Shown here piece after piece: positions 57,001 through 63,000 of a stretch of 64,000 bases of DNA (the first letter of the stretch is position 1; the number at the start of each line of letters is the position of its first letter). Source of the DNA: Phallusia mammillata (lineage: Eukaryota); assembly GCA_965637545.1 (NCBI GenBank), contig OZ281496.1, positions 124,001-188,000 of the forward strand, read 5' to 3'. Made by a program: the position numbers.

Positions 57001-60000
57001 AGAAAAAAACAGAAATATTCGATTCGTGAGAATTTCCGGACGTTGATTTGGTCAAATGCTCTTTGCAGACCTTGCAAGTTAAGATAACTGATAACATCTA
57101 CAATTTAGTTGGCAGCAATCTAAACTGGCTTTTATGTTGTTATTTCCTCCAATTTTTAAAATGTTGCGTTTTGACAAATCTTATTTTACCTGTGGTTTCT
57201 TCAACTTGCAAACTCGCTTCGCTCATCCGACTTTCCTCGCCAATACTTTTCACAACAAACCAATATCTCGTTCCACTAGATAATGACGTCACTTCAAGAC
57301 GCGTCAACGACGTTTCCATGGTGTTTGTGACGTCATCGTCAACGTTTCCATATTCAAGTCGATATTGGGCAGCCCCTGAAATAATGCCGCAAAAGTTGTA
57401 AGTCGGTTCTCGCGGAAATATCCCAGTTCAAACTGCTTTTTCTGCCTCTTAACGAACATTTAAAGCAGGGGTTCTTAAACTTTTGCGGTCGTACCCCACT
57501 TTACACTATTTATTTAATCTCACGTCCTCCCTAAATAAATATTAGCATCGATAAAATCAATCAGAAGGATACGTCTTTGAATCAGATGCACTGAAAGTAA
57601 TGGCAATCTCCAATGCAAAATTGCGAACAAATAGAGAATTTACGGGAAAGAAAAGAAGCCAGGGTTAAGACATCATAACTTACCAATGACGTCACTCCAA
57701 CGTAATACAACTGATGACGTGGTGACATTTGTTATGATGACGTTGTCAGGAGCAAGAGGAACTGAAAACAACAATAAACTTGTTTACAATGCTATTAACC
57801 AGTGGTAACTTAGTGTTGAGTAATTTACTAACCAGTGGATTATTAACTAACCAGTGTTGGATTATTAACTAACCAGTGGATTATTAACTAACCAGTGGAT
57901 TATTAACTAACCAGTGTTAGATTATAAACTAACCAGTGGATTATTAACTAACCAGTGGATTATTAACTAACCAGTGGATAATTAACTAACCAGTGGATAA
58001 TTAACTAACCAGTGGATTATTAACCAACCAGTGTTGCATTATTAACTAACCAGTGCTGCATTATTAACTAAGGATTGAATCATTAACTAACCAGTTTGTA
58101 TTTGTATTTTTTCACTTCCTCTCTCATTTCTTCTGTCTTTGATTCCAATAGAGAAAACAACAAAATCGTACCACGTGCCTGGGTTTAAACCAATCACAAC
58201 CGCCTGAGCTGGAATTGTTTCCAAAACTTGTCGCGTATCTTCCGTCCCATTGGTCCGATAAATCACGTGATATTTTTCCGCGCCTGGAATATTCAAGTTT
58301 TAAATCAAACTTAACCAAAACATTTCATTTCTAAGCAAACCTTGGACTGGTTTCCAACGCAACAGAACTGACGTGGTTGTGACGTCATCAAAGTTTACTC
58401 CTGAGGTAGCCGCCGGTCCTGTGACGTTATCAACCAAATTAGTAATGACGTAAATATGACGTAACTAATTTCAACTTACGGGTTGTTTCACGTGTTTGAA
58501 CACTTGCGGCGCTGTGACGCCCAGAAACCCCAACTGACGTCACGGTTATGACGTAAGTAGTTCCGGGAATTAGGTTTTTGAGCACTGATGATGTCACATT
58601 GGAGGTTTGGTTGTAAATTGTGACGTTGTCGTTTGTCGCAAAATACCGGATGACGTAATCAGTTGCACCTGGTGACGAAACAAAACAATTATTAAAACCA
58701 TTTAAACAAAAACGAAACGAAATAACTCACCTCGTACATTTGTCCAAAACAAATTAAGGGATTTTGTGTTTATTTGTGAGATTTCTATCTTTCGAGGTGG
58801 CAGAGGAACTGAACAAAATATTAAATGTTTTAAGTTTCACCGAGAAAACTTACTGAACCTACTTCACCTGTTTGAACTTGAACGTGAACTTCAGGGTCAG
58901 AATTAACCACACCCAAATCTCCAACAGAAATCACACGGAACTTGTACCAGCTTCCTGGCCTCAAAGCAGTCGCAGTTGAGGTCGTTGAAGCTGTTTTCGG
59001 GGTTTTGAAAGTTTCGTTTGAAGATAAAGTTACTTGGAGTTCGTAAAGGTTGGCACCTGATGTAAAAGTTTAAAGAAACAAACATGACAGCTACTTAAAT
59101 TTTAAGTGATTGCAATTTTAACGGGTTGAATAAGTTTAATACTTTGCAAGATATAAAAGCGTAATACTATTCTTGGTAGCATTTCCTCAAGGGTAAAATT
59201 TATTACAAACTGGTTGCCACTTACCTACGACCGGTTGCCAGGCAACGGAGATACTTGTTGTTGTGACCTTGCCCAATGAAATGACCTTCACAGCCTCTGG
59301 TACTGAAAATAAATCAGGTTTACTCCACAATATCGCAACATTACAAGCAGAAAGACTCACAAGTTGCAATCGACAACTCTTCGCTTTTCCCGCTCTCAAC
59401 TTTCCCGCCAAAACCAACAGAACTGACGGAAATACCGTGTTCCCTTCCCGCTTCCAGGAAATTCAACCTGTGTGACGTAACGTTCACTGTTACGTAGGCA
59501 GTGACGTCAGTGAGCGCGTTGACGTAAGCGAGTTTGTAGCTGGAAGCCCCAAAAACTTCGTTCCACGACACCGACATGGAATCGGTGGTTACCATGACAA
59601 CGGAGACGTCAGAGGGAATTTCGGGAACTGCAAAATATTTTCATGGTTGGTCAGACTTTATTTGTGACATCACAATGATCTTTGTCACCTGTTTGTTGAT
59701 GAACAATCGGGCTTCCTCCTAGACTTTCGCGGTTTTTCGAATCCACAGCAAATACTTTGAAACCATAAACTGAACCGGGATTCAAATTATCGATGGAAAC
59801 ATCGTTTGTGGGTGAATGTTGTTTACTGGTTTCGTTCAAACTGGATATTTCTACCAAGTATTCAAGCGCTCCTACAAACAACAAGTGTTATAACGTGATG
59901 AATAACTTTGTTGTCATGTTATTCTGATTTTGTTTCAAAGGTTGTTTATTTTTATTTGTTCAAGAATTATCAAAGTAAGAGAATAGTTTCTAATACTAAA

Positions 60001-63000
60001 AAACTGTTTCTACAATTTATTTTCAAAATATGGAGAGAAAAGTAATTTCACCTTTGACCTCTGCCCATTGGAGTGTGACGGTTGTAGAAGTGACGTCAGT
60101 GACAGTTGGCGCGAGCGGATTTTGAGGAACTAAAAAAATAAAAAAATAAAATATTCGATTCACCATAATTTCGAGACTTACTTGTTGATTCGGAGAAAAC
60201 TTCGCTTCGTTCGCTGCGTTGACCGCCTTCACCAACCGTTGTGATAGTGACGTCATATAGCGTTCCAGAACTGAGGTTTGCGATCACAACTCGCGTGTCT
60301 GACGTCACTATGGTATCCGGCAGGAATATGTCATCATCTTGTGACGTTACAATCACTTCGTACGTAGAAGCTCCTGCGATTGGTGACGTAATTAAGTTTT
60401 AACTTGGGGTGGTGTGATTTCTATGTTACCTTTTACGTTTTCCCAATCCAAAGCAAAACTTGAATCGCTGGTTTCCGACACAGAAATATTTCGCACAGAT
60501 TCAACCACTGAAAAAGAAAGCAGAGAATTTAATATTTATTCGATAAATTGCGTTAACGAACTTGAATTCCCGATTTTTTAATAAGCAACCTGTTTGTGTC
60601 AGGGAATATGTTTAATACATAAGACTTCTCACTGCCAGCAACCAAAAACGGGTAGAGCTACTAACACAGGATCTCATAATAGAAAAGGGTCAGGCGCGCC
60701 GGAGCTCCAGCGTTTTTTACAAAAACTGCATTTGAAATATTTCCGTTGTGCCACCTACCGGAATTTAGCAAACCTGTTTGGTGTGAGTTCTTGTGTTAGC
60801 AGCTCTACCCTAAAAATGTGGGTGGAGCTACTAACACCATACCTCTCGCGACACCCAAAAGTCCCTAATTTTCGACAAGTGGCGCAAAGAGCAGTTTTTT
60901 ACATTTGAAACGTTATATCTCCTAAAATGCTGACGGTTAGGGCTATTGGGGTCGGGGTAAGGTATTAGCATTTAAAAATTCACTAAAACTAACCCCAAAA
61001 TTTAGTTTCTAATGTAAAAATTGTATAAACTTATTTCCCAACCCAACCCCTCTTCAGCCGCTAAATAAATAATCCAGCTCTTTACGCTCCCTTGTGAAAG
61101 TGAAACTCCCGTGAAGCATGGTGTTAATAGCTCTACCAAAAATCTCCTAAACTCTGAACTCACCAGTTTGAAACGTCACAACTCCGCTCGTCCCCGGACT
61201 CGTCCGGTTCCGCACCCCCACTGACGTCATAGTGACGTCATACCACGTTCCAGCTGTGAGTCCCGTGATCTCGCTTGAAGGGCGTTCGGCGGTCAAAGTC
61301 ATAATGTCACCTTCTTCACTTTCAACAAATACTTCGTAATAAACAGCTCCTGTGACGACAACGTCGGTTAGTGACGTCAGATAAACTTCGAGTTGCAAAA
61401 TTTTGGCAAACCTTTCTGTTTATTCCATTTGATGCTTGCAGCATTTAGTTCAACAGAAGTCACAGTAGCATTGCTTGGGACATCAGGCCCTAAGAACAAA
61501 TAATTGGATTTCAAAACTAGTTTAAGCGAATAGTTCCAACTTACCTTTTGCACTTGCCAGAAAACAAACGCAAAAATGACCCAAAAGTTTTATTCACACA
61601 AGTTTAGTAAAACCAGTAAAAGAAAATACAGAAGTTGGTAAAAATTCAATTCGAATTTTGTACTTACTTCATGAGAGCAACAGTAAAAATACGACTTCCG
61701 TATATTTAATCTTCATTCCGACCTTTTCTTCTTTGCAGGTGGAAGTAGTGTTACGTCACAATGCAGACTTTTGTTACGTCACCACGTTACGTCACCGGAG
61801 CAAACTTTTATTCTCAGCAAATCATGCAAACAATTGTTGTGTTGTGACGTCATAAGTGTCGTGAAACGATGTGAATTTTTTGGATGGAAAGGAAATGTGA
61901 AAACACAACTTATGAATAAGGACATTGGGCTAATTATTGAAGAAATCTACAGATTTCATGCAGGGGTTTCAGTCACGCCTCATGCAAGCATCAGTGATAA
62001 TTACATTTTGTCCCAATTGATTGAAGGTTATTTTGAGATTTTGGGGTCGCTATAGTGTTGTTGTTATACAGTTTTATGCGACAATAGTTGGTTCGTCCAG
62101 TTTCAAGCAACATTGTCAGGGGTGATATTTTCAGTGATATTAACTTACACAAAATATGAACTTATATTTCGTGTGAACTTTAGAAAATAATGAAACAATT
62201 GTGAAAATTAAACAGCAAATTTGTGTTAAAAGTTTGGTGCAAAACAGCAAAGTTTTGTCAGTTAGTGAACACCCCCCCTTCTTGCTCCCCCGTGCACACA
62301 GCAGCGCCACCAAGTGTTTCTAGCTTTGCAACAACTCACTGGTCGTCTCGCGAACCACGTGACTTTCCGCGCTTGACTGGTTTTCCTCTCCGACCGCCGT
62401 CACATAGAAATCGTATGCAGTGCCAGCACTCAACGATTCGATGGAAATAAATGTTTCACTCGTTGTGAGAATTACTTCGTTTTCGTCAGGATCGACGCTG
62501 CGGACCCGGATATTGTAGGACTGTGCCCCTGTGGATGGATATACCGGTTTGCAGACAGGAGTTTGGGTGGAAATGATGAATTTTTTTGCAAACTTAATTC
62601 AGGCCAACTAATGATGTAGCCAACTGTGGTAATAGTTCAGATATAAATCACATTTTGATGAACTATTGATTAAAACTTTTTTCAATTGCTATTGTAAGAA
62701 GTAATAAATTATGTTTAGTATAACAAACCTATGACAGATTTCCACCAGAGGCCGATCGACGAAACGTTGACTTCGGTAACAACAACATCAGTTGGCGTTG
62801 ATGGGACTAAACAAAATAATAGTTAAACAAACGCCAACACAAGCACATAGCCTCACAGCCACAAAAAAACACATAGCCAGAAAAACGCACAGACACGCGG
62901 CCACACAACCGCACAAACACAGAAACGCACAGACACACAGACACACGGCCACACAACCGCACAAACACAGAAACGCACAGAGACACAGCCACACAAACAC

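What the first reader, a model, noticed from the sequence alone, without database searches (positions are those of the whole stretch)
59872..60181. Identical exon between diverged introns at the array edge: concerted evolution
Exon 60129-60052 is identical across all 78 nt, including synonymous sites, to 56992-56915 and 53867-53790. Yet the intron 59872-60051 is clearly diverged, with many substitutions and indels relative to its counterparts. The upstream intron 60130-60181 shares only a diverged acceptor side with the junction introns. An old duplication whose interior is continually homogenised fits this better than a single recent triplication. Exon-restricted identity could reflect short conversion tracts, cDNA-mediated conversion or unusual synonymous constraint (inference).
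Basis: partly seen in the sequence, partly recalled or inferred. Interest (0 to 1): 0.68.

Follow-up and report, generated by a model that had tools for sequence, protein, structure and literature searches.

The report
Diverged edge of homogenised FN3 array
A 3.1-kb block of eleven exons is repeated three times inside a giant sea-squirt fibronectin-repeat gene; the first copy keeps an old, diverged edge in which one 78-base exon is still letter-identical, a familiar signature of gene conversion in tandem repeats.

Summary
On the minus strand lies a giant FN3-repeat gene, most likely of the ascidian Phallusia mammillata. It holds a tandem array with a period of 3124/3125 bp (50927-~60190). There are three units, each with 11 phase-1 exons encoding 6 FN3 domains.

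Unit cores differ by 4-13 substitutions in 2715 nt. At the gene-5' edge of the first unit, the two introns flanking exon 60052-60129 differ from their counterparts by about 19.5% plus 8 indel events. The exon and 6+7 flanking bases (91 nt) are identical in all three units.

A single recent triplication cannot give this two-age mosaic. The best reading is an old duplication whose interior was later overwritten by conversion or unequal crossover. The array edge escaped this. A short conversion patch, or purifying selection plus luck at 20 silent sites (P about 0.01-0.02), covers the exon.

Synonymous sites in the core change as freely as introns, and the exon shows no RNA structure, so nucleotide-level constraint is unlikely. 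cDNA-mediated conversion is unlikely because core introns are homogenised too.

No sister-species sequence or reads were available. This is a new example of a known process, of modest interest. The 67-fold excess of TGACGTCA across the window is the odder thing seen.

The parts
50927..60197 (-). Whole tandem array inside the FN3-repeat gene: three units of 3124/3125 bp, each with 11 exons encoding 6 FN3 domains (1596 coding nt per unit).
   Evidence: Repeat spacing; self-blastn 50927-57036 vs 54051-60172, 98.8% over 6128 columns; exon map with AG/GT at all 11 exons; Pfam fn3 on single exons.
57176..59890 (-). Core of unit C, the first unit in gene direction. Near-identical to the cores of B (54051-56765) and A (50927-53641).
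   Evidence: C vs B 4 mismatches, B vs A 9, C vs A 13, each in 2715 nt. Of 13 substitutions, 4 are exonic (3 synonymous, 1 I/V) and 9 intronic, 7 of these in the minisatellite.
60052..60129 (-). Exon 1a of unit C (first 26 codons of an FN3 domain), identical to 56915-56992 and 53790-53867.
   Evidence: 78 of 78 identical. Translation PQNPLAPTVTDVTSTTVTLQWAEVK.
60046..60136 (-). Full identity island of 91 nt: the exon plus 6 nt of donor side and 7 nt of acceptor side.
   Evidence: First differing columns are 60045 and 60137. No RNA-structure signal, z=+0.98. No Rfam family here.
59891..60045 (-). Diverged part of the intron downstream of exon 1a in unit C. Counterparts are 53642-53783 and 56766-56908.
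   Evidence: 59927-60045: 80 matches, 25 mismatches, 15 gap columns. 59891-59926: 32 of 36 (derived). No better donor elsewhere in the window.
60130..60181 (-). 52-nt intron upstream of exon 1a in unit C. It is the diverged homologue of the last 49 nt of the junction introns.
   Evidence: 39 matches, 9 mismatches, 2 gap events.
56993..57189 (-). Junction intron C/B (197 nt). The A/B twin is 53868-54064. It consists of 14 nt of the intron that follows exon 6b, about 120-134 nt of filler, and a 49-nt relic of the 52-nt intron.
   Evidence: Sequence reading. The junction regions of B and A are identical apart from one extra A: 409 matches, 0 mismatches.
53917..54036 (-). Filler of unknown origin inside the junction intron. 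The twin copy is 57042-57161.
   Evidence: Local alignment to the upstream exon is no better than shuffles: 397 of 500 shuffles score at least as high. Only chance-level matches elsewhere in the window.
50927..50941 (-). Gene-3' end of the array. Exon 6b of unit A ends at 50941, and homology between units stops at 50927, 14 nt into the next intron.
49995..50332 (-). FN3-6', an older paralogue of the unit's last FN3 domain just downstream of the array. The 3' ~123 nt of its exon b are almost identical to the unit. The rest of the exon, exon a and the introns are diverged. This is a second conversion-like patch.
   Evidence: blastn 49981-50171 vs unit copies at 94-96%; alignment; 75% aa for exon a and 93% aa for exon b.
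57823..58095 (-). 19-nt minisatellite in the intron after exon 5b. Copies also lie at 54698-54970 and 51574-51846, so it is homogenised together with the core.
   Evidence: Tandem Repeats Finder and sequence.

Best explanation
The 6-FN3 block was first duplicated in tandem long ago. The breakpoints were near the 5' end of the 52-nt intron (about 60181-60197) and 14 nt into the intron after exon 6b, with about 120 nt of filler at the joint.

The copies then diverged. Later DNA-level exchange between misaligned units (long-tract gene conversion and/or unequal crossover) overwrote everything from 59890 downward. A very recent unequal exchange added the third unit.

The first ~300 bp of the first unit sit at the very edge of the array. 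Unequal exchange rarely replaces an edge, so this stretch kept its old sequence. Exon 1a within it was held close to its paralogues by purifying selection. It therefore stayed similar enough to receive a short conversion patch of at most 91 nt, while the flanking introns, about 20% diverged with indels, block heteroduplex spread.

Shown here: the two-age mosaic, its boundaries, intact splice sites and reading frame. Inferred: the order of events, conversion as the cause of the exon's identity, and divergence-limited tract ends.
For: 1. Sharp age contrast. The pooled edge introns have p=0.195 (JC 0.226) with 8 gap events. The adjacent 2715-nt core differs by 4, 9 and 13 mismatches between unit pairs.
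2. Discordant groupings. At the junction region A=B and both differ from C. In the core B is closest to C. B has no private substitution, while A has 9 and C has 4. B therefore looks like a recombinant.
3. Core introns and a 273-bp minisatellite are homogenised along with the exons, so the exchange is at DNA level.
4. The island is non-random: 0 of 200,000 permutations at all sites, and P=0.007-0.02 at silent sites.
5. Internal control. In the core, 3 synonymous changes in 1518 exonic nt compare with 2 non-minisatellite changes in about 924 intronic nt. Silent sites are not specially constrained in this gene.
6. A second patch of similar size lies next door. FN3-6' exon b has 1 mismatch in its last ~107 exonic nt, while its first ~80 nt are clearly diverged and its introns cannot be aligned.
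7. A database protein of this gene (P0006) carries a further FN3-5/6 copy encoded outside the window. Its identity to the unit is 71, 86, 100 and 97% aa for exons 5a, 5b, 6a and 6b, whereas 0 of 2620 internal FN3-FN3 matches within P0006 reach 60% identity (top 53%).
8. A passage in PMC2886086 states that array ends are hard to remove by unequal crossover and so hold the most divergent sequences.
Against: Only one genome and one haplotype were seen. There is no outgroup, so old and recent are relative ages only.

Conditioned on protein-level selection, the exon's identity is only moderately unlikely (about 1-2%). The island contains no informative site, so a conversion tract cannot be delimited or proved.

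The other end of the array (50927) shows no comparable diverged edge.

The only database model of the gene (P0006) skips 62340-~49531, which includes the whole array. Neither expression nor an independent assembly confirms the array.

The filler at the junction has no detectable source, so the original duplication event is not reconstructed.
Confidence: 0.6

Rival explanations
1. Old edge and homogenised core as above, but the exon was never converted. Purifying selection fixed the roughly 58 non-silent sites, and the 20 silent sites happen to carry no change.
For: The probability is small but not negligible: 0.011-0.020 by binomial or Poisson, 0.007 when indel events are included. The identical 6+7 intron bases are splice-site consensus positions.
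Against: The rest of the gene shows free synonymous change. Demonstrable exchange lies immediately next to the exon. A similar patch lies in FN3-6'. It also needs zero amino-acid change over a divergence of about 0.2, while FN3 domains within the database model P0006 are at most 53% identical to one another.
Confidence: 0.13
2. Assembly artefact. Either the assembly switches haplotype or is wrong around 59890-60181, or the number of units is mis-assembled. The divergence would then be allelic or spurious rather than between paralogues.
For: The window comes from a scaffolded assembly with a 200-N gap at 11480-11679. The database model P0006 lacks the array region. Ascidians are recalled to be highly polymorphic; this is recall and was not checked here.
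Against: About 20% divergence with 8 indel events in ~210 nt, beside 2.7 kb at 0.1-0.5%, is extreme for alleles. A haplotype switch would not by itself leave the exon identical. Units A and C carry private substitutions, as distinct copies would. The junction regions are intact, spliceable and in frame.
Confidence: 0.1
3. Recent triplication in which the junction piece (53642-54050) was copied from an unseen diverged paralogue elsewhere in the genome, for example by template switching, rather than from the edge copy long ago.
For: The junction holds about 120 nt with no source in the window. The gene has at least one more related block outside the window.
Against: The exon 1a peptide finds at most 40% identity in P0006 residues 1501-2500, so the known outside block is not the donor. 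This rival still needs the exon to be identical between diverged introns in that donor, so it explains nothing extra.
Confidence: 0.07
4. Nucleotide-level function of the exon constrains all 78 bases. Candidates are splicing enhancers, an RNA structure, or the embedded TGACGTCA motif.
For: The exon contains one TGACGTCA (60091-60098), a motif 67-fold over-represented in the window.
Against: The motif covers only 8 of 78 bases. The RNA fold is no better than shuffles, with 166 of 200 shuffles folding at least as well. There is no Rfam match here. Other exons of the same units show synonymous differences.
Confidence: 0.05
5. cDNA- or RNA-templated conversion homogenises exons only.
For: The identity island coincides with an exon.
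Against: Core introns and the intronic minisatellite are as homogenised as the exons. No intron has been lost, and all 11 exons keep AG/GT flanks. The island extends 6 and 7 nt into the introns.
Confidence: 0.03

Closest known systems
[quoted passage not shown]
   Same: An intragenic tandem triplication of a multi-exon block that encodes whole repeat modules. The copies are highly identical, introns included, and the block stays in frame.
   Different: Here there are 11 exons and 6 FN3 domains per 3.1-kb unit, in an ascidian gene. The first unit keeps an older, about 20% diverged edge with an identical exon island. I did not read whether the nebulin array has such an edge.
Divergent ends of tandem arrays under unequal crossover (passage in PMC2886086; also McAllister and Werren 1999, recalled and not read)
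   Same: The interior is homogenised and the extreme edge is the most divergent, because misaligned exchange cannot easily replace it.
   Different: Those cases are multi-gene or satellite arrays with many units. Here there are three units inside one coding gene. Only the gene-5' edge shows the effect, and selection on an exon is superimposed.
Short-tract ectopic gene conversion between duplicated genes, confined to conserved exons by flanking divergence (for example globin duplicates; recalled, not checked here)
   Same: A patch of identity about 100 nt long, bounded where sequence divergence rises steeply.
   Different: The tract here cannot be delimited because there are no informative sites inside it. 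The donor and recipient are domains of one gene.
LPA kringle IV type 2 array (recalled, not checked here)
   Same: A two-exon or larger coding unit repeated in tandem with near-identical introns, flanked by older, diverged kringle copies.
   Different: Copy number and scale differ. It is a vertebrate plasma protein. No comparison was made here.

Membership tests
Fibronectin type III repeat protein (Pfam PF00041) | Match to the fn3 profile at or above the curated cut-off | tested here: met
   The unsplit exon 2 scores 25.0 bits (cut-off 25, model positions 3-75). Exon 4b scores 26.1 bits. The four other b-exons tested score 18.9-23.3 bits, covering model positions ~30-78, as expected for two-thirds of a domain. 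The 25-aa exon 1a alone gives no match. In total 6 of 7 exon translations hit fn3 at E<=0.01.
Receptor-type protein tyrosine phosphatase (the UniRef name of P0006) | A PTP catalytic domain (PF00102) | tested here: not met
   PF00102 is absent from the precomputed Pfam list of P0006, though present for other hits such as P0158, P0166 and P0167. PF00092 (VWA) and many FN3-type families are listed for P0006. The gene is better described as a giant FN3-repeat protein.
Concerted evolution of a tandem array | Regions of the same units with sharply different divergence (a mosaic of ages), with significant identical runs | tested here: met
   Edge introns have p=0.195 against 0.001-0.005 in the core. 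A run of 91 or more arose in 0 of 200,000 permutations.
Concerted evolution of a tandem array | Copies group by species rather than by position in related species | not testable with these tools
   No eukaryotic genome collection was open. The nearest other-species proteins (Clavelina lepadiformis) are 43-44% identical, too distant for this test.
Concerted evolution of a tandem array | Edges more diverged than the interior | tested here: inconclusive
   Met at the gene-5' edge (59891-60181). At the gene-3' end homology simply stops at 50927, and unit A has only 9 private substitutions.
Simple recent segmental triplication | All copies uniformly near-identical up to common breakpoints | tested here: not met
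   The third copy of the 409-bp junction region is about 20% diverged in its introns and loses homology at about 60181-60197.
cDNA-mediated (retro) gene conversion | Homogenisation limited to exons, or accompanied by intron loss | tested here: not met
   Core introns and the minisatellite are homogenised, and all introns are retained.

The most novel reading that the evidence does not exclude
Homogenisation in this gene may act on exons as such. Exon 1a at the escaped array edge, and FN3-6 copies scattered over more than 10 kb of the gene, would be kept identical by an exon-targeted process. This could be RNA-templated repair, or nucleotide-level selection linked to the genome-wide TGACGTCA excess, rather than ordinary DNA conversion limited by divergence.
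Probability: 0.05. Interest if true: 0.6.

Novelty: new member of a known kind. Interest (0 to 1): 0.25.

Why it matters
The array is a clean small-scale example of how giant repeat proteins gain domains, here 12 extra FN3 domains. It also shows how exchange between units erases history in the interior while the array edge keeps it. That makes it a useful teaching or calibration case for conversion-tract detection in a highly polymorphic chordate relative. It warns annotators too: the only database model of this gene omits about 13 kb that hold about 22 FN3 domains. It does not open a new question, because the processes involved are textbook.

Tried and rejected
- Self-BLAST of whole proteins for internal repeats returned nothing. 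BLAST drops matches enclosed by the full self-match, so both results are void. Chunked queries replaced them.
- One search used wrong coordinates for three exons: FN3-x exon b, FN3-6' exon a, and the start of the upstream exon b. The first two rows are dropped. The third (43% to P0006 1687-1752) is not used.
- The source of the junction filler was sought by local alignment with shuffles and by short-word blastn. Nothing above chance was found.
- A better donor for the edge introns was sought within the window. None was found.
- RNA-level explanations were checked with Rfam over the whole window and a fold of the 91-nt island. The only result was a borderline tRNA call at 40378-40451, which ARAGORN did not confirm.
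- Protein searches with the single exon 2 found the following. Among proteins of 155-2000 aa there was one distant hit, P0004. In the representative library there were 1239 hits at E<=0.001, with the best 150 listed. Among the 154 proteins then held, no exon from 1a to 4b matched at more than 53% identity over a full exon (three partial 22-aa alignments to P0120 and P0015 reached 59%). So no available model contains the array.
Cluster members of P0006 therefore stayed unseen.
- The search for 'TGACGTCA' with 'ascidian' listed 3 unrelated papers. The search on Phallusia genome and heterozygosity gave nothing usable.
- PMC1855330 was read by passages for array-end effects and gave nothing directly usable.
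- Spliced models were never joined. Every search and translation used one exon at a time, and the joined step was left out.
- Not used: genome contigs (bacteria and archaea only), the closed viral and metagenome collections, and paper supplements.
- Nothing in the window was taken for human. The N run was left untouched.
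Full report
**What the region is**

The window is eukaryotic, with short GT-AG introns and one 200-N gap at 11480-11679. On the minus strand, from about 64000 to 34472, runs one very large gene made of fibronectin type III (FN3) domains.

Most domains are split into a 78-nt exon 'a' and a 183-192-nt exon 'b'. Both are phase 1-1. Single-exon translations hit Pfam fn3 (6 of 7 at E<=0.01). Whole-domain exon 2 covers model positions 3-75, and b-exons cover about 30-78.

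A database protein, P0006 (5021 aa), carries the UniRef name 'Receptor-type tyrosine-protein phosphatase eta-like' and is from Phallusia mammillata. It maps at 97-100% amino-acid identity to window exons 63684-62341 (residues 2935-3178) and 49375-34472 (residues 3205-5021). The window is therefore P. mammillata or something very close to it; this is an inference.

P0006's precomputed Pfam list has no phosphatase domain, so I call the gene a giant FN3-repeat protein. All searches used one exon at a time.

**The array**

Repeat finding, self-blastn and a three-way alignment show a tandem array with period 3124/3125 bp:
- Unit A: 50927-54050.
- Unit B: 54051-57175.
- Unit C: 57176 to about 60181-60197.

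Each unit has 11 exons with AG/GT flanks, 1596 coding nt and 6 FN3 domains. The array therefore encodes 18 domains in frame.

The cores (2715 nt each) differ by 4 (C-B), 9 (B-A) and 13 (C-A) mismatches. A 19-nt minisatellite inside an intron is shared by all three units. The 409-bp junction regions of A and B are identical apart from one extra A.

**The observation**

Exon 60052-60129 is identical at 78 of 78 bases to 56915-56992 and 53790-53867. The identity spans 91 nt (60046-60136). The flanks compare as follows:

| Segment (unit C coordinates) | Against the junction copies |
|---|---|
| Downstream intron, 59927-60045 | 80 matches, 25 mismatches, 15 gap columns |
| Downstream intron, 59891-59926 | 32 of 36 match |
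| From 59890 downward | Near-identity |
| Upstream 52-nt intron, 60130-60181 | 39 matches, 9 mismatches, 2 gap events against the last 49 nt of the 197-nt junction introns |

The rest of each junction intron is 14 nt from the intron that follows exon 6b plus about 120 nt of filler. The filler has no detectable source.

A possible 12-of-15 match to the end of the upstream exon, with the donor GTAAGT missing, suggests that the old breakpoint lay just inside that exon. I could not make this significant.

**Is it more than chance?**

- With 46 differences placed at random on 291 sites, 0 of 200,000 trials gave an identical run of 91 or more.
- The fairer test counts only silent sites. The exon has 20 synonymous sites (18 fourfold codons) and the pooled edge introns have p=0.195 (JC 0.226). 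The chance of no silent change is then 0.011-0.020, or 0.007 when indel events are counted.
- The island is therefore real but not overwhelming once protein-level selection is allowed for.
- Because the island has no informative sites, only its maximum extent is known. Its neat fit to the exon follows from exons having been less diverged to begin with.

**What it means**

A single recent triplication would make all three junction-type regions alike, and they are not. The data need three things:
- An older duplication, which accounts for the edge copy differing from the junction copies at about 0.2 substitutions per site with indels.
- At least one later DNA-level exchange that made the cores alike from 59890 downward.
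- A very recent event that made the A and B junctions identical.

Unit B has no private substitution, while A has 9 and C has 4. The sites where C is the odd one out and those where A is the odd one out lie in blocks along the unit. By my hand count, three or fewer runs among the 9 events (the 5 substitutions at 51658-51683 in the minisatellite counted as one) has P about 0.07. This is suggestive only, but B looks like a recombinant.

The exchange is at DNA level, because introns and the minisatellite are homogenised. This argues against cDNA-templated conversion.

General synonymous constraint is unlikely. Of the 4 exonic substitutions in the cores, 3 are synonymous third-position changes and 1 is I/V. 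Only 2 substitutions lie in about 924 nt of non-minisatellite intron. The 91-nt island has no RNA-fold signal (z=+0.98) and no Rfam match.

**Supporting context**

Patchy identity recurs in this gene:
- Just downstream of the array, FN3-6' (49995-50332) has an exon b with 1 mismatch in its last ~107 exonic nt against the unit's exon 6b. The first ~80 nt of that exon, its exon a (75% aa) and its introns are diverged or cannot be aligned.
- P0006 carries, N-terminal to everything the window encodes, another FN3-5/6 pair. It is 71, 86, 100 and 97% identical to exons 5a, 5b, 6a and 6b.
- Within P0006, 0 of 2620 internal FN3-FN3 matches of 50 aa or more reach 60% identity, and the top value is 53%.
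- The nearest other-species proteins (Clavelina lepadiformis, 43-44% identity) have their own internal FN3 repeats of up to about 79% identity (61 and 144 matches at 60% or more). Lineage-specific expansion therefore seems common in this gene family.

**Limits**

- P0006 skips 62340 to about 49531, including the whole array. No protein reachable by my searches contains exons 1a-4b. Neither expression nor an independent assembly supports the array.
- No reads, second haplotype or sister-species DNA could be examined.
- A haplotype switch or local misassembly at the edge therefore stays formally open. It would not by itself explain an identical exon between 20%-diverged introns.

**Comparison with known cases**

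An intragenic triplication of a multi-exon block is known from nebulin (abstract of PMC9109913). Array ends are known to be the most divergent part under unequal crossover (passage in PMC2886086). Short conversion tracts bounded by divergence, and the LPA kringle array, are analogies that I recall but did not check. This is a new example of a known process.

**Seen in passing**

TGACGTCA occurs 92 times in the window against 1.29 expected. After masking units B and C it is the most enriched 8-mer, at 79 against 1.17 expected. It occurs across all genes of the window. The one search made ('TGACGTCA' with 'ascidian') listed only three unrelated papers. It seems more surprising than the finding itself.

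Noticed in passing
whole window, e.g. 334-341, 36546-36553, 60091-60098: The palindrome TGACGTCA occurs 92 times against 1.29 expected from dinucleotide shuffles. With units B and C masked it is the most enriched 8-mer, 79 against 1.17 expected. The extended form is (G)TGACGTCA(C/T), and the one-off variant TTACGTCA occurs 43 times. It is spread over all genes of the window. In the array all 7 shared copies per unit lie in exons, and several visibly encode D-V-T. The search 'TGACGTCA' with 'ascidian' listed 3 unrelated papers.
   Followed up: partly
52173-52180 vs 55297-55304 and 58422-58429: One of the few differences between units (A has C, B and C have T at 52179/55303/58428) makes TGACGTCA in unit A where B and C have TAACGTCA. 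It lies 10 nt upstream of the acceptor of exon 5a.
   Followed up: partly
57823-58095 (also 54698-54970, 51574-51846), minus strand: A 19-nt minisatellite of about 14 copies begins exactly at the donor site of exon 5b. Each copy repeats the donor-like CTG|GTTAGT, giving a string of decoy 5' splice sites 19 nt apart.
   Followed up: no
62340 to ~49531, minus strand: The only database model of this gene (P0006, Phallusia mammillata) jumps from exon 62529-62341 to exon 49375-49184 (residues 3178 to 3205). It omits about 13 kb that hold the array and several unique FN3 domains. This is either in-frame skipping, since the exons mapped here (array and adjacent domains) are phase 1-1, or an incomplete model.
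   Followed up: partly
49995-50332, minus strand: FN3-6' is an older paralogue of the unit's last domain. Its exon b is mosaic, with the 3' ~123 nt almost identical to the unit and the 5' part diverged.
   Followed up: yes
62838-63098: A CA-rich degenerate repeat with periods 8, 16 and 48, apparently in an intron of the FN3 gene.
   Followed up: no
40378-40451, minus strand: A borderline Rfam tRNA match (29.2 bits against gathering score 29, E 0.053). ARAGORN did not confirm it.
   Followed up: yes
17016-18092, 22363-22734 and 26895-28724, plus strand: Other genes lie on the plus strand. One open frame ends in an ETS-domain-like RYVYKFV motif (my recollection of the motif, not tested). There is also a 609-aa low-complexity, Ser/Lys-rich open frame.
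   Followed up: no
proteins P0005 and P0155 (Clavelina lepadiformis): The closest other-species relatives have internal FN3 repeats of up to about 79% identity, offset by multiples of about 179 aa. This is an independent expansion in that lineage.
   Followed up: partly
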